Below are positions 5,511 to 23,711 of a DNA stretch of 64,000 nt, one piece after another. The stretch is from Minisyncoccota bacterium. GTDB taxonomy: Bacteria > Patescibacteriota > Minisyncoccia > Phycocordibacterales > UBA5272. Each line of letters begins with the position of its first letter. Positions within the stretch are counted from its first letter, which is position 1. The notes beneath the pieces are model-generated. The model was not told where the DNA came from, did no database searches, and saw only the letters and a program-made list of their open reading frames with translations. Location: contig JAXLZS010000001.1 of NCBI GenBank assembly GCA_046350775.1, positions 416,342 to 480,341 of the forward strand, read 5' to 3'. A program made the translations under genes and the position numbers.

Positions 5511-8500
5511 TTAGTTAATTAAGATAATTTCCTCCTTTTGAGATTCTTCAAATTTTATATCAGACAATTTACAGTCTTTAATTAATTCTTCTTTAAAGCT
5601 TTCGATAAAATCTTTTCTTTCTGAATTGGTTTTAATCAAAAGAGAAACAACATCACTGGCGACAAGATTGTTTTCTTTTCTTAGATCTTTTATCTTTCTT
5701 GTGAGCTCACGATAATCCCCTTCTTTTTTTAATTCTGGAGTTATCTCAAGATCTAGAATTATATTTTTACCTTCTTCATAATTTTGTTTTTCATCTATCT
5801 TTATATCTTTGACATTGATTTCTTCTTTTAGAATTTCAAAATATTTTTCGTCTATTTTTATTTTTGTAGTTAAAGAAGATAGCGGCTGACGGACTGGAAT
5901 ATTATTTTTTTGTCTTACCATGAGAGCTTCGGTGACTACATCTCTCACTTTTTGCATGTCTAGTAATATTTCTTCTTTATTTGATCGAAGAGAAAAGAAT
6001 TTTTCTGGCCACTTTTCAAGATGTACACTTTCTTTTTTGTCTTTATTATTTTTATTTATTGACTGATAAATTCTTTCAGCCAAAAATGGCATAAAAGGAG
6101 CAATGACTAGAGAGAATTTATTCAAGACAAAATACAATGTATACAAAGTCTCATCGTCATCATTTTTTAATTTTTCCCTTGATCTACGCAAATACCAAGT
6201 AGATAGATCATCTATAAACTTTTCAAAAGGACGAGTTGCTTGATCGAGTCTATACTGATCCATAGACTTTGTAGTATTTTCTAAAATCTCATTTAGTCTG
6301 ACTAATATCCAGAGATTGAGAGGATCTTTTATCTCAATATTCTTTGGCATATCTATATCTAACATTTCATAAAAGCTTAAAATATTTTCCAATTTTGAAA
6401 CTATTTTCTTATAACTTTCTTCTACGAGCGAATCAGGAAAAGCTACATTTTCAGCGCACATGAGTGGAGAGGAAAGTAGAGAATATCTAAACGCGTCTGC
6501 TCCAAATTTTTCTGCCAAAATCAGTGGATCTGTGTAATTATTTTTACTCTTACTCATTTTTTCCCCATCACCAGCCAATACTAGTCCATTGACTATGACA
6601 TTTTTATAAGAAGCTTTATCAAATATACCTACAGACAAGTTGAGTAAAGAGTAAAACCATCCTCTGGTCTGATCAAGACCTTCAGCTATAAAATCTGCTG
6701 GGAAAGTTTTTTCAAACAATTCTCTGTTTTCAAATGGATAGTGAAGTTGACCATAAGGCATAGATCCAGATTCAAACCAACAGTCAAACACATACTCAAC
6801 TCTTGTCATCTCTTTACCATTTTTACTTAAGAGTTTTACCTGATCTATGTATGGACGATGTAAATTGATTCTTCCTTTTTCATCTCTTGGCACCAGGCTT
6901 AGATTTAATTTTCTTATCTCAGCATTTCTTGGATAAAGTCTAGTATCATTAGATAACTCATCTTTTATCACCTCTTCTTCTGTGATCAGTTCACTACCGG
7001 CGATCATCATCCTCATTGGACCACCATGAGTGACTATCAATATTTTTTTACCATTATACCTTTCTTCTAAATTATAGATTCCAGCCATGACTCTATCCAT
7101 GACTTCTTGATGACTTTCCCCTCCACCTATCTTTACTTTAAATTTTAAATAATCAATACCTAAATCCTGGTGAAGTTTTTCTGATGTTTGACCACTATAC
7201 ACTCCAAGATCTATTTCTACAAAATGCTCATCTATCAATATTTCTTTGTCTCCGGCCATTATAGATGCTGTCTCTTTAGCTCTGGGATATGGTGAAGATA
7301 TTATAATATCGAAGTCTACGTTATTTTTCTTTTTAGCATCTTCCACTTGTATTACACCGAGATCTGTTAAAATATTTTCAGGGTCCATTTTAGTTTCTTC
7401 AATACCTTTCACATTATGCATAGCTTCTCCATGACGCATAACATAATATTCATTTTTGGGTTTTGCTATATTGGATTCTGTCAACTCTTTTAATGATCCG
7501 ATTATTCTTACTTCATCACCGTCCACCTCTTTCCAGATTGGTAGAGGAGCACCCCAGTAGCGACTTCTTGAGACAGCCCACTCACGAGCCCCCTCTAGCC
7601 ATTTTCCAAATCTTCCGTCACGTATATTTTCTGGAGTCCAATTTATTTTTTGATTTTCAGACAAATTTTTTTCTTTAATTTTTGGAACGTTTACAAACCA
7701 AGAGCTGGTAGCATAATTTAAAAGTGGAGTATCACATCTCCAGCAAGTTGGATATGCGTGAACTAATTTTTCTTTTGCAAAAAGAAGTTTCTTTTCTGCT
7801 AAATATTTTATGATACCAATATCAGCTGATTGGTTGTCTCTGGATGTCTTTACTTTTATACCAGCAAAATCTGTTACTTCTTTTGTAAATTCACCATTCA
7901 TCCCGACATGTTTGATAATAGGAAGTTTCTTTTCTTTTCCGAGATTAAGATCGTCTTCACCAAAAGCTGGGGCAATATGTACAACTCCAGTACCAGTATC
8001 AAGTGTCACAAATTCAGCATCCACTATGGTGTAAATATTTTCTTTATTTTCAAGATTTGCATCAAGATAATAATCAAAGACTGGTTTATATTTTTTACCA
8101 ACCAATTCTTCACCATTAAATTCTGAAATTATTTCAAATTCTAAATTTTCTTTTTTAAATACATCTTCTAACCTATCTTTTGCTAAGATAAAATTTTCTC
8201 CAGAATTTATTTTCACCTTCGCATATTCAAAATTTTTATTTACAGCGAGAGCTACATTTCCTGGTAAAGTCCAAGGAGTGGTGGTCCAAGCAAGCACAAA
8301 AGTGCCAAGCTCATCTACCAATTCAAATTTTACTGTCACAGAAATATCTGTCAGATCTTTATAATTTTGAGCAACCTCGGATTGAGCGAGAGTAGTCTCA
8401 CATCTTGGGCAGATATGCATACTTTTATGACCTTCAAAAACTAATCCTTTTTTATCGAGCTCTTTAAATGCCCACCAGACAGATTCAGTATAAGTATAAT

Positions 8501-8963
8501 CCAGAGTCTTGTAAGAATTATCCATATCTATCCAGCGACCAAATCTAGGTATTACATGCTTCCACTCCTCTTCATATGCAAAAACACTGGCTTCTGCAGC
8601 TTTATTAAAATTATCAATACCAAAATCCTCAATATCTTTTTTGGATTCCAAATCAAATTTTTTCTCGACTAGATTTTCTATTGGCAAACCATGACAATCC
8701 CAACCCCAGACTCTTCTGACATAATTTCCTTTCATTGTCTCATATCGAGGGATGGTATCCTTTATAGTACCAGCCAAAAGATGGCCATGATGTGGGAGAC
8801 CTGTCGCAAATGGAGGGCCGTCATAAAAACTAAAATTACCTTTTGGATTTTCTCCGGCTGGCTTTTCGAGAGATTTTTCAAAAATTTTATTCTTCTGCCA
8901 GAATTCTAAAACTTCTAACTCTTTTTCATTTATAGTTTTATCTTTGTTTTGATTTGGATTCAT
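5511..8963 (-). CDS. ileS: isoleucyl-tRNA synthetase (type 2) with an inserted histidine-phosphatase-like domain
   Basis: HIGH motif (PHHGHLLAG), KMSKS, WRCDTPL, WAVSRSRYWGAPLPIW and NLHRPYID. The ATG at 8961-8963 (MNPNQ) is the likely start; the ORF-track start at 8990 is a TTG. A roughly 200-aa block containing RHGEAMHN...THGG lies between PIW and LHRP. Confidence 0.85.
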   Translation of the reverse strand: MNPNQNKDKTINEKELEVLEFWQKNKIFEKSLEKPAGENPKGNFSFYDGPPFATGLPHHGHLLAGTIKDTIPRYETMKGNYVRRVWGWDCHGLPIENLVEKKFDLESKKDIEDFGIDNFNKAAEASVFAYEEEWKHVIPRFGRWIDMDNSYKTLDYTYTESVWWAFKELDKKGLVFEGHKSMHICPRCETTLAQSEVAQNYKDLTDISVTVKFELVDELGTFVLAWTTTPWTLPGNVALAVNKNFEYAKVKINSGENFILAKDRLEDVFKKENLEFEIISEFNGEELVGKKYKPVFDYYLDANLENKENIYTIVDAEFVTLDTGTGVVHIAPAFGEDDLNLGKEKKLPIIKHVGMNGEFTKEVTDFAGIKVKTSRDNQSADIGIIKYLAEKKLLFAKEKLVHAYPTCWRCDTPLLNYATSSWFVNVPKIKEKNLSENQKINWTPENIRDGRFGKWLEGAREWAVSRSRYWGAPLPIWKEVDGDEVRIIGSLKELTESNIAKPKNEYYVMRHGEAMHNVKGIEETKMDPENILTDLGVIQVEDAKKKNNVDFDIIISSPYPRAKETASIMAGDKEILIDEHFVEIDLGVYSGQTSEKLHQDLGIDYLKFKVKIGGGESHQEVMDRVMAGIYNLEERYNGKKILIVTHGGPMRMMIAGSELITEEEVIKDELSNDTRLYPRNAEIRKLNLSLVPRDEKGRINLHRPYIDQVKLLSKNGKEMTRVEYVFDCWFESGSMPYGQLHYPFENRELFEKTFPADFIAEGLDQTRGWFYSLLNLSVGIFDKASYKNVIVNGLVLAGDGEKMSKSKNNYTDPLILAEKFGADAFRYSLLSSPLMCAENVAFPDSLVEESYKKIVSKLENILSFYEMLDIDMPKNIEIKDPLNLWILVRLNEILENTTKSMDQYRLDQATRPFEKFIDDLSTWYLRRSREKLKNDDDETLYTLYFVLNKFSLVIAPFMPFLAERIYQSINKNNKDKKESVHLEKWPEKFFSLRSNKEEILLDMQKVRDVVTEALMVRQKNNIPVRQPLSSLTTKIKIDEKYFEILKEEINVKDIKIDEKQNYEEGKNIILDLEITPELKKEGDYRELTRKIKDLRKENNLVASDVVSLLIKTNSERKDFIESFKEELIKDCKLSDIKFEESQKEEIILIN

Positions 8964-9215
8964 AGTTTTTAAAATAATAAAATCGCCCAAGATTTATAAA
9001 TCAAGGGCGATTCTAAAAATTTATTGTCGCGGTACCACCTTGTTCACAAAATACTTTGATATTTTGCCTTATTTATCGGGCTCTACTCGTCTTTTCGACT
9101 TTCTTCCCAAAGCTCGAGAGTGATTAGTTCTGTCGTCGCTTTTATAAGATAATAATATCACAAAAAATAAAAGCCACAAAATTTGTGTTTTCATATAATA
9201 ATGCTATTATCAAAG
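8964..9215 (-). promoter_or_regulatory. T-box riboswitch leader of ileS (Ile/AUC specifier likely; terminator/antiterminator)
   Basis: Minus-strand GGTGGTACCGCG at 9028-9039 matches the T-box consensus AAnnnGGGUGGnACCGCG. Terminator hairpin aatcgccc...gggcgatt at 8981-9012 is followed by a U-run. Candidate AUC specifier around 9150. Confidence 0.55.
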
Positions 9216-9231
9216 CAGAAAAACATTTTAT

Positions 9232-9714
9232 ATGGAAAAATTCTTTAGGGATAATTGTTTAAAAAACTTCGTCATATTAAATAATCTTGCAAAGAATGGA
9301 AAGTTTGATGATATAAACCAACTTATTTTTGAAACAAAAAAAATAATAGGCTACAAAATAGAATTAAATCTATTAGATACTACTTTTTCATTACTTGGAA
9401 GAGTTGTTCCAAAATCAGGAGGTTTTACTATTTATTTGAATAGAAATATGGATAATGACCTATATAGATTTGTCTTAGGTCATGAGATAGGGCATATATT
9501 AAATTCTTTTGAATATACAAGACCTTGGCCAACAATTATTTCATACATAGAAAATCTTGAGGAAAAAATTTGTGACTATATAGGTTTAGAATTATCAAAT
9601 TCTAAAATAGATTTTTTAAATAAGATAAAAATGTATGAAAAACTTTCCAATAAGAGATTAATTGATGAGTTGGTTTTAAACGAATATGTTAAACGAAACA
9701 ATTTAAGAATGTAA
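9232..9714 (+). CDS. ImmA/IrrE-family (DUF955-like) putative zinc metallopeptidase
   Basis: HEXXH in LGHEIGHIL. 160 aa. Confidence 0.4.
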   Translation: MEKFFRDNCLKNFVILNNLAKNGKFDDINQLIFETKKIIGYKIELNLLDTTFSLLGRVVPKSGGFTIYLNRNMDNDLYRFVLGHEIGHILNSFEYTRPWPTIISYIENLEEKICDYIGLELSNSKIDFLNKIKMYEKLSNKRLIDELVLNEYVKRNNLRM

Positions 9715-17292: not shown

Positions 17293-18045
17293 ATGTTTAC
17301 AAAATATTTTTACCTAGTAAGACACGGAGAGACTATATTAAATAAAGAAAAAATAAGACAAGGAGAGGAAGGTAAACTTTCTCCTGTAGGAGTAGAAGAG
17401 GTAGAAGAGCTGAGCAAAAGACTCCTAAATATGAATATAGATAAAATTCTTGTCTCGCCTTTTGAGAGAACTCGTGAGACAGCGCAAATAATAAATAGCT
17501 ATCTTAAATTACCAGAAAATAAAATAATCATAACAAAACTAATTGGTGAAAGAAAAAATCCTACAATAATAGTAGGAAAACATTATGATGACCCTGTAGC
17601 AAAATCTTTTATAGATAAGATGGACAAGACTATACACGATCCAGATCTGCGCATCTATGATGAGGAAAATTTCACAGATTTAAGAGATAGAGCCATCAAA
17701 GCACAAAAATTTTTAATTAGAAATGGATCTCATCACACACTCTGTGTAACTCATGGAATATTTTTAAAAATGTTTTTATCTACTCTGTTGTATGGAAAAG
17801 ATTTAACTGTAAAACAATATGCTGAGATGGCACTATACAATCCAGCTGACAATGCTGGAGTGACACTTGTAAAATATGACCCAATAAAAAAGCTTACCAG
17901 ACCGTTTAAAAAATTTATATCAAATATATTTAATGATGATATAAATAATTTAGACACAAACAATAAAATAGACAAATATTCTCCTTGGTCCATACTCGCC
18001 TATAATGACTATACTCGTGATGGATTTAAAAAACTCCACATATAG
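17293..18045 (+). CDS. histidine phosphatase (phosphoglycerate mutase) family protein
   Basis: LVRHGETILN (RHG motif), SPFERTRETAQ and a second His in VTHG. Confidence 0.7.
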   Translation: MFTKYFYLVRHGETILNKEKIRQGEEGKLSPVGVEEVEELSKRLLNMNIDKILVSPFERTRETAQIINSYLKLPENKIIITKLIGERKNPTIIVGKHYDDPVAKSFIDKMDKTIHDPDLRIYDEENFTDLRDRAIKAQKFLIRNGSHHTLCVTHGIFLKMFLSTLLYGKDLTVKQYAEMALYNPADNAGVTLVKYDPIKKLTRPFKKFISNIFNDDINNLDTNNKIDKYSPWSILAYNDYTRDGFKKLHI

Positions 18046-22128: not shown

Positions 22129-22204
22129 GGGAGATTAGCTCAGTTGGTAGAGCAACTCGTTTACACCGAGAAGGTCAGAGGTTCGAGTCCTCTATCTCCC
22201 ACCA
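22129..22204 (+). tRNA. tRNA-Val (UAC); integration target of the downstream element
   Basis: 7-bp acceptor GGGAGAT/ATCTCCC, D-arm TAGCTCAGTTGGTAGAGCA, anticodon loop TTTACAC, T-arm GGTTCGAGTCC, 3' CCA. Confidence 0.85.
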
Positions 22205-23711
22205 GAATAGTACTTAGCGGTTTCTTCGAAACCAAGGTATGGGACGCACGAAGTGCGTCCCACTGTGTTTGCCCTGATTTTGCGGGGGAATTCTGAAATG
22301 CGGGTGCGCTTACGCGCACCTGTTTTTCGCCAAGAGAAAGGTTCGAGCCAAAGATTTCTTTGGCTTTGACCTTTTTAGCAAAAAGGTCAGTATCCCGTGC
22401 GATTCCGTCTAGTGTTTGCGCGTCTTTTATCCATTCTTTCATCGGTTCGAGCCAATCATTCTGTTTTTGTAGAACTGAAGATATTTTGTCTTCGAGCGAC
22501 TTCTTTTCGGATAACAATTTAGCTTTTTGTACACGATATATTTCCTGTTCAATCACTTGGTCTAAATATCCATTAAGAAGTCGCTCTAGTTTCACATTGA
22601 TTTTCAAAATATCTTTTTTCACTTCTTCTACAAAAACAGAATTAGACTGGGCAGAATTGTTGAAATCCTTTTCCGCCATTTTCAACAATTCTTTTGCCCA
22701 GTCTTTAGGCAAAGAAACTTTTTGAATTTCGGATGATATCTGCTGATCCAAAATTTCACTGCGAATATATCCTTGTGTACATTTGATACTTTTGTTTTTC
22801 TTGGAACAACGATAGTACACATGACCTTTTTGGATTTCAGCAGTTATCATCATTCCGCATTCGGTGCAGTGAAGTAGTCCGCAAAATGGTTGTGGCTCAT
22901 TTTTTGGTTTTCTATCGGGTTGTCCTCTAAATTTCAACATCGACTGCGCCGAATCAAAAAGTTTCTTTGCTATGATTGGCTCGTGCTTACCTTCGTGGAT
23001 TTCACCACCATATTTGAATAGTCCGATGTAAAATGGATTTGAAAGAATAAAAGACGCTTTGGTTTTTGAGATTCTCTTTCCGGTTCTTGTTGTAACGCCG
23101 GATTTCGCCAAAAAATTTGCAATATCTTCCAGTCGTTGATTACCTTTTACATATCGTTCAAAAGCCAAGCGCACAATTTTAGATTTTTTCTTGTCCACGA
23201 CTATGGTCTTGGTACGACTGTCATTCATATAACCGAGTGGCGCTTGGCTTGGAAATATTCCCATTCTCACTTTTTGGCGAAGTCCTCGTCTCGTATTTTC
23301 TGAAAGAAAATCTACATAGTATTTGCTTTGCACAAATGCCATGGAAAGTGAAAATTTCCCTTGTGATGTATTTTCAAACCAAAAAGTGGGAAATTTTAAC
23401 ATCGCAAGAGTACCGATGTCGATAAAATACACTATCTGTCCGCCGTCCACAGAATTGCGCGCTAGTCTGTCGGGATGCCAAGCCAAAATTCCTGAAGCTA
23501 CCCCTTGCTCAATTTTTTTCATCATACTGTTAAATATTGGACGACCTGGAATTTTGGCGGATTGTTTCTCGACCAACTCCTCAACTATCTCTAAACTTTG
23601 TTCACGAGCAAACGCGCGCAATTCCGTTAACTGTGCCTCAATACTCAAAACCTGCTTATCCTCGACATCGGTACTCTTGCGAGCATACAAAAAGAATTTT
23701 TGTGATGACAT
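22161..23711 (-). CDS. large serine recombinase (resolvase/invertase catalytic domain + recombinase domain + zinc ribbon)
   Basis: N-terminal FFLYARKSTDVEDKQVLSIEAQ (catalytic Ser), a Cys cluster CGLLHCTECG...YYRCSKKNKSIKC and a coiled-coil C-terminus. The last ~55 codons run through repeat A and the tRNA-Val 3' end and may be non-coding read-through. Confidence 0.8.
   Translation of the reverse strand: MSSQKFFLYARKSTDVEDKQVLSIEAQLTELRAFAREQSLEIVEELVEKQSAKIPGRPIFNSMMKKIEQGVASGILAWHPDRLARNSVDGGQIVYFIDIGTLAMLKFPTFWFENTSQGKFSLSMAFVQSKYYVDFLSENTRRGLRQKVRMGIFPSQAPLGYMNDSRTKTIVVDKKKSKIVRLAFERYVKGNQRLEDIANFLAKSGVTTRTGKRISKTKASFILSNPFYIGLFKYGGEIHEGKHEPIIAKKLFDSAQSMLKFRGQPDRKPKNEPQPFCGLLHCTECGMMITAEIQKGHVYYRCSKKNKSIKCTQGYIRSEILDQQISSEIQKVSLPKDWAKELLKMAEKDFNNSAQSNSVFVEEVKKDILKINVKLERLLNGYLDQVIEQEIYRVQKAKLLSEKKSLEDKISSVLQKQNDWLEPMKEWIKDAQTLDGIARDTDLFAKKVKAKEIFGSNLSLGEKQVRVSAPAFQNSPAKSGQTQWDALRASHTLVSKKPLSTILVGDRGLEPLTFSV
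22202..22331. repeat. inverted repeat A (left copy, about 130 bp, hairpin-dense)
   Basis: Its reverse complement matches 23901..24030 at about 93% identity. Differences fall in a hairpin and are compensatory (ggtgcgc...gcgcacc vs gtacgcgc...gcgcgc). Confidence 0.8.

What the first reader, a model, noticed from the sequence alone, without database searches (positions are those of the whole stretch)
6870..7480. Isoleucyl-tRNA synthetase with a complete histidine-phosphatase (PGAM-like) domain inserted in the catalytic core
Between the conserved WGAPLPIW and NLHRPYID segments, normally ~45-60 aa apart, ileS encodes an extra ~170-200 residues. They carry the full histidine-phosphatase catalytic signature: RHGEAMHN (RHGxxxxN), SSPYPRAKETA, GGES and THGG. 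A free-standing paralog of the same family sits at 17293..18045. A phosphatase grafted into an aaRS is an unusual architecture. It could hydrolyse a phosphorylated intermediate (for example proofreading-related or signalling nucleotides), or it could be a domesticated mobile insertion.
Basis: seen in the sequence. Interest (0 to 1): 0.6.

Follow-up and report, generated by a model that had tools for sequence, protein, structure and literature searches.

The report
Phosphatase domain nested inside isoleucyl-tRNA synthetase
The gene for isoleucyl-tRNA synthetase, an essential translation enzyme, carries a complete and apparently active phosphatase domain spliced into one of its surface loops; the same arrangement is fixed in hundreds of species of tiny Patescibacteria, and I found no paper describing it.

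Summary
ileS (window 5511..8963, minus strand) encodes a type-2 IleRS. About 200 residues (aa 506-708, window 6867..7475) replace a 2-10 residue loop of the CP3 subdomain. The insert is a histidine-phosphatase domain (Pfam PF00300, E=9e-30; AlphaFold pLDDT 92.6). Its nearest solved relatives are the small-molecule phosphatases PspA, PhoE and CobC, not phosphoglycerate mutases.

It is neither an artefact nor a recent mobile insertion. The identical protein occurs in independent assemblies. At least 314 species-level Patescibacteria genomes carry the insert, and so do all 120 nearest protein clusters, always at the same site with a uniform length (218-245 aa between flanking motifs). R519, H520, R570 and H655 are invariant in 81/81 sequences, E592 in 80/81 and N526 in 78/81. 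The IleRS KMSKS and editing motifs are invariant too, and the window's HIGH motif is canonical.

Some relatives carry two phosphatase copies, some at a second site. One ValRS carries at least four. Every copy whose sequence is complete keeps the catalytic residues.

Best reading: a bifunctional IleRS/phosphomonoesterase acquired once and inherited vertically. The substrate is unknown. A small metabolite is most likely; a role coupled to tRNA or adenylate chemistry is not excluded. No paper describing this was found. I rate it a new variant of a known kind, of moderately high interest.

The parts
5511..8963 (-). ileS gene: type-2 isoleucyl-tRNA synthetase with nested phosphatase (1150 aa from ATG 8963; the mechanical ORF extends to a TTG at 8990)
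   Evidence: TIGR00392 834.6 bits, above the 621.4 cutoff. Best solved relatives are human, yeast and P. megaterium type-2 IleRS. An identical 1150-aa protein, P0386, is in NCBI and in two Logan runs.
7476..8963 (-). N-terminal IleRS part (aa 10-505): Rossmann N-half, CP core, CP1 editing domain, CP2, and the first half of CP3 (beta-beta-alpha)
   Evidence: Pfam tRNA-synt_1 stretch 27-518. Aligns to human IleRS 15-495. CP3 boundaries come from PMC7191050 and PMC7955072.
8781..8792 (-). HIGH signature (HHGH, aa 67-70), canonical HxGH form
8268..8285 (-). Editing-site threonine-rich motif TTTPWT (aa 236-241)
   Evidence: Invariant in all 76 aligned sequences that cover it.
6867..7475 (-). Inserted segment (aa 506-708): linker, histidine-phosphatase domain, and return strand/linker
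   Evidence: It has no counterpart in solved IleRS. The AlphaFold model has pLDDT 92.6 and pTM 0.89. Foldseek top hits are PspA, PhoE, CobC and GpgP phosphatases.
6993..7445 (-). Pfam His_Phos_1 (PF00300) match, aa 516-666
   Evidence: E=9e-30, 104.2 bits against a cutoff of 21.7.
7413..7436 (-). RHGEAMHN: R519, nucleophile H520, N526
   Evidence: R519 and H520 are in 81/81 sequences and N526 in 78/81. Aligns with RHGE..N of PhoE and PspA.
7281..7283 (-). R570 (second phosphate-binding Arg, in SSPYPRAKETA)
   Evidence: 81/81 conserved.
7215..7217 (-). E592 (proton-donor Glu position, VEIDLG)
   Evidence: 80 Glu and 1 Asp among 81 sequences. Aligns with the 'REI(H/D)xG' Glu of PhoE and PspA.
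7026..7028 (-). H655 (second catalytic His, THGG)
   Evidence: 81/81 conserved.
5514..6866 (-). C-terminal IleRS part (aa 709-1159): second half of CP3, Rossmann C-half, KMSKS, anticodon-binding and type-2 C-terminal domains
   Evidence: Aligns to human IleRS 498-886. Pfam Anticodon_1 at aa 893-1038 and DUF5915 at aa 1025-1155.
6546..6560 (-). KMSKS signature (aa 811-815)
   Evidence: K811 and K814 are invariant in the 76 sequences that cover them.
17293..18045 (+). Free-standing His_Phos_1 paralog (250 aa). It belongs to the same superfamily but is not part of the fusion and not a recent duplicate.
   Evidence: PF00300 E=4e-26. 38% identity over 68 aa to the insert. Catalytic residues are present.

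Best explanation
The gene encodes one polypeptide with two enzymes. The host is a complete type-2 IleRS with synthetic and editing sites intact. A ~200-aa histidine phosphatase of the PhoE/PspA/CobC type is nested in a surface loop of the IleRS CP3 subdomain, between the CP3 beta-beta-alpha unit and its second helix.

The domain was inserted once in an ancestor of a large group of Patescibacteria (Paceibacterota / Parcubacteria-type lineages). It has been inherited vertically with ileS ever since, under selection for catalysis.

Inferred mechanism, from the chemistry of the superfamily: H520 attacks a phosphomonoester and forms a phospho-histidine intermediate. R519, R570, N526 and H655 hold the phosphate. 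E592 protonates the leaving group, and water then releases phosphate.

The substrate is not identified. I judge a small phosphorylated metabolite most likely. On that reading the fusion mainly ties a housekeeping phosphatase to an essential, constitutively expressed protein in a minimal genome, using a loop that tolerates insertions.

Shown: the architecture, fold, insertion site, distribution and residue conservation. Inferred: phosphatase activity, small-molecule substrate, and independence from aminoacylation.
For: - Domain identity: PF00300 E=9e-30 inside an IleRS that passes its equivalog cutoff.
- Delimitation: about 200 aa replace 2-10 aa.
- Site: CP3. Query 505 aligns with S. cerevisiae residue 490 and C. 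albicans residue ~497, inside CP3 as defined in PMC7955072 and PMC7191050.
- Fold: pLDDT 92.6. The best solved neighbours are all small-molecule phosphomonoesterases: PspA 4ij5, E. histolytica PSP, HFP 9mmh, PhoE 1h2e, GpgP and CobC.
95 of the 145 best 50%-identity representatives are embedded in an aaRS. All 120 nearest 90% clusters carry PF00300.
- Fixed position and length: 218-245 aa between W486 and H711 in all 81 sequences. At least 65 ORFs are uninterrupted.
- Catalytic residues: R519, H520, R570 and H655 in 81/81, E592 in 80/81, N526 in 78/81, at a mean insert identity of only 38%.
- Co-inheritance with the core: Mantel rho 0.27, p=0.001; same nearest neighbour in 20 of 66.
- IleRS function retained: KMSKS and the editing motif are invariant across the set; the window's HIGH motif is canonical, while relatives vary between HxGH and GxHH.
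- Charge: the insert is acidic (median pI 5.7; window net charge -11), unlike an RNA-binding module.
- Not an artefact: the identical protein occurs in an NCBI MAG and two independent runs.
Against: - No activity was measured.
- No known phosphatase subfamily cutoff is reached (CobC 68.7 vs 162.9, PspA 62 vs 350, dPGM 62.6 vs 225), so the substrate cannot be read from homology.
- The insertion lies only ~25 residues after the CP2-CP3 linker that lines the tRNA CCA / reveromycin pocket (PMC7955072). Homologous-site insertions recur in a ValRS, and a second site follows the KMSKS region. This could mean the position matters functionally, not just that the loop is permissive.
- Relatives with two copies, and one ValRS with at least four, all catalytically intact where complete, are not obviously explained by one housekeeping activity.
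- The tools return no model coordinates, so the orientation of the phosphatase active site relative to the IleRS cleft is unknown.
Confidence: 0.65

Rival explanations
1. The phosphatase is functionally coupled to aminoacylation. It would sit beside the synthetic cleft and act on something in the IleRS reaction path. Candidates are a tRNA-Ile 3' end blocked by a 3'-phosphate, 2',3'-cyclic phosphate or pyrophosphate (as left by nucleases or toxSAS-type toxins; this example rests on my own knowledge), or a nucleotide product such as PPi or AMP.
For: - The insertion point is ~25 aa downstream of the CP2-CP3 linker (AREWAVSRSRYWG in the window) that forms part of the tRNA CCA-end pocket in yeast IleRS (PMC7955072).
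- A His_Phos domain occurs at the homologous post-'WGxxIPxW' position in a ValRS (P0151), and at a second site just after the KMSKS region in several IleRS.
- Fixation across hundreds of species.
Against: - The insert is acidic (median net charge -6; window -11), so it is a poor RNA binder.
- It retains the cap segment typical of small-molecule members, and all structural neighbours are metabolite phosphatases.
- The ValRS version is rare: 3 fragments plus P0151.
- No precedent was found in the literature searched.
- The geometry is untested.
Confidence: 0.2
2. The domain is a cofactor-dependent phosphoglycerate mutase that supplies a glycolytic step, fused to IleRS.
For: It belongs to the same superfamily, and weak NCBIfam hits to dPGM models exist (dPGM_arch 62.6 bits, GpmB 35 bits).
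Against: - All dPGM models score far below their cutoffs.
- The profile matches solved dPGMs over only about the first 100 residues, while PspA, PhoE and CobC align end to end.
- After the catalytic Glu the window reads E-I-D-L-G. By my recollection of the dPGM motif, it reads E-R-x-Y-G there, so the mutase-type Arg and Tyr are missing (sequence inspection).
- The domain is short (Pfam positions 2-158 of 194), with no dPGM-type C-terminal tail.
Confidence: 0.05
3. The domain is a non-catalytic structural, regulatory or protein-interaction module: a pseudo-enzyme or phospho-ligand sensor on CP3.
For: CP3 is structurally variable among IleRS (PMC7191050). In human IARS1 it is a protein-interaction surface for LARS1 (PMC13439101).
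Against: The nucleophile His, both Arg and the second His are invariant in 81/81 sequences and the proton-donor Glu in 80/81, while the rest of the domain has drifted to 38% identity. Every complete extra copy in multi-copy proteins also keeps them. That pattern is typical of active enzymes, not pseudo-enzymes.
Confidence: 0.07
4. The insert is an assembly chimera, a recent mobile-element insertion or an intein-like element that does not reflect the functional protein.
For: Only one weak, probably chance, 14-nt imperfect direct repeat lies near the two boundaries (6796-6809 and 7481-7494; 12 of 14 bases).
Against: - The reading frame is uninterrupted.
- The insert has the same GC content as the rest of the gene (0.33-0.35).
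- There are no inverted repeats.
- The identical protein is found in three independent data sets.
- The insert is present at the same site in at least 314 species-level genomes.
- No intein or transposase family was detected in this protein.
Confidence: 0.02

Closest known systems
Type-2 (eukaryote/archaeon-like, mupirocin-resistant) isoleucyl-tRNA synthetase, e.g. P. megaterium IleRS2 (8C8U), S. cerevisiae IleRS (7D5C, 8WND), T. thermophilus IleRS (1ILE)
   Same: Same overall domain order, HIGH and KMSKS motifs, CP1 editing site, and type-2 C-terminal domains. These are the best sequence and fold matches.
   Different: None of the solved enzymes has anything at this CP3 loop. Only 2-10 residues separate the positions that flank the ~200-aa insert here.
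Broad-specificity histidine phosphatases: PhoE/YhfR (1H2E), PspA-type phosphoserine phosphatase (4IJ5), CobC alpha-ribazole phosphatase (6NRU, 6E4B)
   Same: Same fold, similar size and same catalytic residues. Profile E-values are 1e-26 to 1e-29, TM ~0.65-0.75 and ~26% identity.
   Different: Those enzymes are free-standing. The insert reaches none of their curated cutoffs. Its two ends are tied into IleRS, and its substrate is unknown.
NCBIfam NF040702 'isoleucine--tRNA ligase, N-acetyltransferase domain-containing' (ileS_w_GNAT)
   Same: A curated precedent that some IleRS carry an extra, unrelated catalytic domain. One relative found here (P0188) has both a His_Phos insert and a GNAT domain.
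   Different: The extra domain is a GNAT, not a His_Phos. The window protein scores 298 bits against a cutoff of 1999 and has no GNAT. No NCBIfam model specific to the His_Phos form appeared among the matches.
Other fusions of the histidine-phosphatase fold: PFK-2/FBPase-2, bifunctional RNase H/acid phosphatase (PRK07238, Rv2228c type)
   Same: A His_Phos domain is covalently joined to another enzyme. PRK07238 is among the best NCBIfam hits to the insert (66 bits).
   Different: Those are end-to-end fusions whose two activities are known or suspected to be linked. Here the domain is nested inside another domain of an aaRS, and no link is established.
Lineage-specific insertions in class Ia synthetases (Zn-binding motif in T. 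thermophilus CP3; INS in ARD2 of IleRS2; leucine-specific domain of bacterial LeuRS)
   Same: It uses a connective-peptide or loop position that varies between lineages (PMC7191050; bioRxiv 10.64898/2026.02.03.703510).
   Different: The insertions listed here are small modules without catalytic activity of their own that help bind tRNA or tune catalysis. This one is a full enzyme fold with an intact active site of its own.

Membership tests
Isoleucyl-tRNA synthetase (TIGR00392 ileS), type 2 | Whole-protein score above the curated equivalog cutoff | tested here: met
   834.6 bits against a cutoff of 621.4, matched in two stretches around the insert.
Isoleucyl-tRNA synthetase (TIGR00392 ileS), type 2 | Class I signatures HIGH and KMSKS | tested here: met
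   HHGH at aa 67-70 and KMSKS at aa 811-815. KMSKS is conserved in relatives.
Isoleucyl-tRNA synthetase (TIGR00392 ileS), type 2 | CP1 editing domain with Thr-rich motif and conserved His/Asp | tested here: met
   WTTTPWT, H338 and D347 are invariant in the 76 sequences that cover them. The isolated editing-domain structures 1WK8 and 1UE0 match aa 209-414.
Isoleucyl-tRNA synthetase (TIGR00392 ileS), type 2 | Type-2 C-terminal organisation (no C-terminal zinc-binding domain of IleRS1); closest to IleRS2 and eukaryotic enzymes | tested here: met
   Pfam DUF5915 at aa 1025-1155. Type-2 and eukaryotic structures score E~1e-200, against 1e-88 for S. aureus IleRS1. Foldseek ranks P. megaterium IleRS2 first.
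Isoleucyl-tRNA synthetase (TIGR00392 ileS), type 2 | Charges tRNA-Ile with isoleucine | not testable with these tools
   Needs an aminoacylation assay.
Histidine phosphatase superfamily, branch 1 (PF00300) | Profile match above the gathering score | tested here: met
   104.2 bits against 21.7, E=9e-30, aa 516-666.
Histidine phosphatase superfamily, branch 1 (PF00300) | Catalytic set: RHG His nucleophile, two Arg, second His, proton-donor Glu | tested here: met
   R519, H520, R570, E592 and H655 align with those of PhoE and PspA. They are invariant or nearly so in 81 sequences.
Histidine phosphatase superfamily, branch 1 (PF00300) | Alpha/beta fold of the superfamily | tested here: met
   AlphaFold pLDDT 92.6. 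288 PDB matches with E<=1e-3, and every one of the 50 listed is a member of the superfamily.
Histidine phosphatase superfamily, branch 1 (PF00300) | Phosphomonoesterase (or mutase) activity via phospho-histidine | not testable with these tools
   Needs an enzyme assay and an H520A control.
Cofactor-dependent phosphoglycerate mutase (dPGM) | Curated dPGM model cutoffs and full-length similarity including the C-terminal region | tested here: not met
   dPGM_arch 62.6 vs 225; GpmB 35.4 vs 261; PRK01295 33.9 vs 316. Solved dPGMs align over only ~100 N-terminal positions.
PspA-type phosphoserine phosphatase / CobC alpha-ribazole phosphatase | Curated equivalog cutoffs | tested here: not met
   PspA NF045917 62 vs 350; PRK13463 65.4 vs 277; CobC TIGR03162 68.7 vs 162.9. 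They are the nearest folds but membership is not shown.
IleRS with GNAT domain (NF040702) and mupirocin-resistance IleRS MupA/MupB (NF000257/8) | Curated exception-model cutoffs | tested here: not met
   298 vs 1999; 697 and 702 vs 1900. No GNAT family was found in the window protein.
Mobile element, intein or recent insertion | Terminal repeats, deviating composition, transposase or intein domains, patchy presence among close relatives | tested here: not met
   No inverted repeats, and only short chance-level direct repeats. GC equals the rest of the gene. No such Pfam family. Present in all 120 nearest clusters.

The most novel reading that the evidence does not exclude
The nested phosphatase is a new, built-in accessory activity of class Ia synthetases. 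It would be positioned next to the CCA-end pocket and would clean or drive the aminoacylation pathway itself. Examples are removing a 3'-phosphate or pyrophosphate that blocks tRNA-Ile (repair of toxin or nuclease damage), or hydrolysing PPi or a nucleotide product at source. On this reading, the recurrence at the homologous site in ValRS and next to the KMSKS loop reflects selection for that position.
Probability: 0.15. Interest if true: 0.85.

Novelty: new variant of a known kind. Interest (0 to 1): 0.6.

Why it matters
Aminoacyl-tRNA synthetases are among the most conserved enzymes. The accretion of extra domains onto them is a much-studied theme, mainly in eukaryotes, and those domains are usually not enzymes. 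Here a complete second enzyme with an intact active site is nested inside the catalytic body of IleRS. It is fixed across a large part of the Patescibacteria, organisms with minimal genomes and poorly understood metabolism.

If the phosphatase is independent, this is a clear case of how genome-reduced bacteria pack functions into essential genes. It would also serve as a lineage marker and an annotation pitfall: NCBI names the protein only 'class I tRNA ligase family protein'.

If the phosphatase is coupled to tRNA or adenylate chemistry, it would be a new kind of synthetase-associated activity.

Either way it is directly testable with one recombinant protein and one point mutant.

Tried and rejected
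- Assembly artefact or chimera: rejected. The identical protein is in an NCBI MAG (614-kb contig) and two independent Logan runs.
- Recent mobile insertion: rejected. There are no meaningful flanking repeats, the GC is the same, and the insert is present in all close and distant relatives.
- Recent duplication of the free-standing paralog at 17293..18045 into ileS: rejected. Identity is only 38% over 68 aa.
- 'Free-standing' close homologues P0001 and P0002 (221 aa, 56-57% identity): P0001 turned out to be a fragment of a syntenic ileS broken by in-frame TGA codons in a genome that reads UGA as Trp. P0002 has the same boundaries, so I read it the same way, but it was not checked. Several fragments that start inside the insert (P0007, P0012, P0013 and others) are probably the same effect.
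- Phosphoglycerate mutase: rejected on cutoffs, partial alignment and missing mutase-type residues.
- Names or taxonomy for the nearest free-standing phosphatases: the cluster look-up gave no names.
- AFDB Foldseek: that library was not available.
- Full-length AlphaFold model (pLDDT 81, pTM 0.66): it confirms two well-folded parts. The tools return no coordinates, so the distance and orientation between the phosphatase site and the IleRS cleft could not be measured.
- Literature searches for IleRS or aaRS with histidine phosphatase or phosphoglycerate mutase, and for CPR aaRS insertions, found nothing on this architecture. The 2026 IleRS evolution preprint mentions no phosphatase or Patescibacteria. 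The library covers only open-access papers and bioRxiv, so absence is not proof.
Full report
**1. The observation**

The region lies in a 1159-codon ORF on the minus strand (5511..8990). The public annotation of the identical protein starts at M10, window 8963, giving 1150 aa.

The protein is IleRS. TIGR00392 scores 834.6 bits against a cutoff of 621.4, matched in two stretches. The Pfam tRNA-synt_1 match is split in the same way. Between the two halves, Pfam finds His_Phos_1 (PF00300) at aa 516-666 with E=9e-30.

Alignment to solved IleRS delimits the insertion. Query 510 aligns with human IleRS 495 and query 709 with 498. Query 503 and 707 align with P. megaterium IleRS2 474 and 485. So about 200 residues (aa ~506-708, window 6867..7475) stand where ordinary type-2 IleRS have 2-10 residues.

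Two details need correction. The flanking motifs are normally about 25-30 aa apart, not 45-60. The proton-donor Glu is E592 (VEIDLG) rather than the Glu of GGES.

**2. Where in IleRS**

Query residue 505 aligns with S. cerevisiae residue 490 and C. albicans residue ~497. Published domain boundaries put CP3 at 459-526 in yeast (PMC7955072) and 473-534 in C. albicans (PMC7191050). The insert is therefore inside CP3, after its beta-beta-alpha unit and before the helix that starts at NLHRPYID.

CP3 is peripheral and differs in topology between IleRS from different lineages (PMC7191050). In human IARS1 it is a protein-binding surface (PMC13439101). The insertion point is nevertheless only ~25 residues after the CP2-CP3 linker, which forms part of the tRNA CCA-end / reveromycin pocket (PMC7955072).

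**3. What the insert is**

An AlphaFold model of aa 496-721, built with 39 homologues, is confident (pLDDT 92.6, pTM 0.89). Foldseek against the PDB returns only histidine-phosphatase folds among the listed matches. The best are:
- PspA-type phosphoserine phosphatase (4IJ5, E=7.5e-13)
- E. histolytica phosphoserine phosphatase
- the riboflavin-pathway phosphatase HFP
- PhoE
- glucosyl-3-phosphoglycerate phosphatase
- CobC

A profile of the insert family matches PspA (8.7e-30), PhoE (8.8e-28) and CobC (4.6e-26) end to end. It matches dPGMs over only about the first 100 positions. No curated subfamily cutoff is reached. The insert is thus a PhoE/PspA/CobC-like phosphomonoesterase of unknown specificity, not a mutase.

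A full-length model has pLDDT 81 and pTM 0.66, with 89-96 across the insert. It is closest to P. megaterium IleRS2 and yeast IleRS. No coordinates are available, so the relative orientation of the two active sites is unknown.

**4. Distribution and evolution**

The arrangement is widespread.
- The junction-spanning segment finds dozens of partial IleRS with both PF00133 and PF00300, named Patescibacteria, Nomurabacteria or Paceibacterota.
- An exhaustive search of 1.84 billion representatives with the insert gives 461 hits at E<=1e-10. Of the 145 best new proteins, 95 are embedded in an aaRS.
The best 80 loci are almost all labelled Patescibacteria: Paceibacterota, Nomura-, Taylor-, Zambryski-, Adler- and Vogelbacteria, Minisyncoccia and Parcubacteria. 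Many MAGs carry a generic 'Saccharibacteria' label, and one 1.3-kb contig is binned as Caldimicrobium.
- All 120 nearest 90% clusters of the full protein (55-100% identity) carry PF00300.
- The identical protein is in a Candidatus Paceibacterota MAG (614-kb contig) and in two independent sequencing runs.

In 81 sequences the segment between W486 and H711 is 218-245 aa, always at the same site. At least 65 ORFs are uninterrupted.

Conservation is striking. R519, H520, G521, S566, R570, E625, R633 and H655 are found in 81/81, E592 in 80/81 and N526 in 78/81. The insert as a whole has drifted to 38% mean identity, against 53% for the IleRS core. KMSKS and the editing-site motif are invariant too.

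Insert and core distances are correlated (Mantel rho 0.27, p=0.001; same nearest neighbour in 20 of 66). This fits one ancient insertion followed by vertical inheritance.

There are no meaningful flanking repeats, and composition matches the rest of the gene.

**5. Variants**

Some IleRS carry two His_Phos domains. In P0130, P0211, P0146 and P0175 the second lies between the KMSKS region and the anticodon-binding domain. P0123 and P0242 carry tandem copies (P0242 scored three Pfam stretches).

One ValRS (P0151, valS 410 bits against ileS 199) has at least four copies at two sites. One of those sites is homologous to the IleRS site. ValRS versions are rare.

Every complete copy keeps the catalytic residues. 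P0188 combines the His_Phos insert with a GNAT domain and an IS200-type Y1 transposase domain. NCBIfam already has a model for GNAT-bearing IleRS (NF040702), but no model specific to the His_Phos form appeared among the matches.

**6. Interpretation**

The conservation pattern argues for an active phosphatase using the standard phospho-histidine mechanism (inference from the family).

Three features favour a small phosphorylated metabolite as substrate: the nearest folds, the retained cap segment, and the acidic surface (median pI 5.7; window net charge -11). On that reading the activity does not depend on aminoacylation. The fusion would couple a housekeeping phosphatase to an essential protein through an insertion-tolerant loop.

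Coupling to tRNA or adenylate chemistry is not excluded (about 0.2). Three observations keep it open: the proximity to the CCA-pocket linker, the recurrence at the homologous ValRS site, and a second site near KMSKS.

The mutase, pseudo-enzyme and artefact/mobile-element readings are each unlikely, for the reasons given under the rival explanations.

**7. Novelty**

Both parts are well-known families. The nested combination is visible in databases but carries generic names such as 'class I tRNA ligase family protein'. Six literature searches found no description of it, and a 2026 preprint on IleRS domain evolution does not mention it. The searched library covers only open-access papers and bioRxiv.

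I rate it a new variant of a known kind, with moderately high interest. The function is open and easily testable.

Noticed in passing
L001 4495-7932 (NCBI GCA_964635125.1, contig CAZWMQ010000001.1); also fragments P0007, P0012, P0013, P0056, P0067, P0070: A syntenic relative (argS-ileS-recO block; IleRS 63% identical to the window's) has 12 in-frame TGA codons in ileS. Eleven align with Trp of the window protein and one with Tyr. A code-11 gene caller broke its ileS, argS and another class I synthetase gene into pieces. This looks like UGA=Trp, not the UGA=Gly of Gracilibacteria and Absconditabacteria, in a Patescibacteria-like genome. Several other relatives' gene calls start at the same internal position, just after a conserved Trp, which suggests the same recoding. 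The window itself uses the standard code: TGA ends 3 of 56 ORFs and all 164 Trp codons are TGG.
   Followed up: partly
loci L002-L081, IleRS N-terminal signature (window equivalent 8781..8792): Among the insert-bearing IleRS, 37 have the canonical HxGH motif and 21 have the swapped GxHH motif. One more has AIHH. Brkic et al. 2023 (PMC10485003) link G/AxHH to mupirocin hyper-resistance in IleRS2. A few have HxGS or HxGN. The window protein has HHGH.
   Followed up: partly
protein P0151 (ENA metagenome, 1161 aa, cut at the contig end): A valyl-tRNA synthetase with at least four histidine-phosphatase domains at two sites. One copy precedes the WCISRQ motif. Three lie in tandem after WGHRIPVW, the position homologous to the IleRS insert. 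All complete copies have intact catalytic residues. Three further ValRS fragments carry a His_Phos domain (P0266-P0268).
   Followed up: partly
proteins P0130, P0211, P0146, P0175 (IleRS, 979-1419 aa): These carry a second His_Phos domain at a different site, between the KMSKS / stem-contact region and the anticodon-binding domain, in addition to the CP3 copy. In three of them (P0130, P0211, P0175) the CP3 copy reads RHA instead of RHG.
   Followed up: partly
protein P0188 (1066 aa IleRS): Besides the His_Phos insert, this protein carries an IS200-like Y1 transposase domain (PF01797, aa 340-461) inside the editing-domain region and a C-terminal GNAT acetyltransferase domain. Patescibacterial IleRS appears to be a hot spot for domain accretion.
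   Followed up: no
window 22129..23711: A large serine recombinase (Resolvase + Recombinase + Zn_ribbon_recom, 516 aa, minus strand, 22161..23711) overlaps the 3' part of a tRNA-Val(TAC) gene (22129..22204, plus strand). This may be the edge of an integrated element.
   Followed up: no
window 9232..9714 (+): A 160-aa ORF lies between ileS and argS on the opposite strand and contains an HEIGH (HExxH-type) motif. The same 160-aa gene, with no Pfam hit on record, sits next to ileS in an independent assembly (L082 250-732).
   Followed up: no
window 17293..18045 (+): The free-standing histidine phosphatase has all catalytic residues and a ~50-aa C-terminal extension with no family match. The genome therefore encodes at least two potentially active members of the superfamily within 12 kb.
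   Followed up: partly
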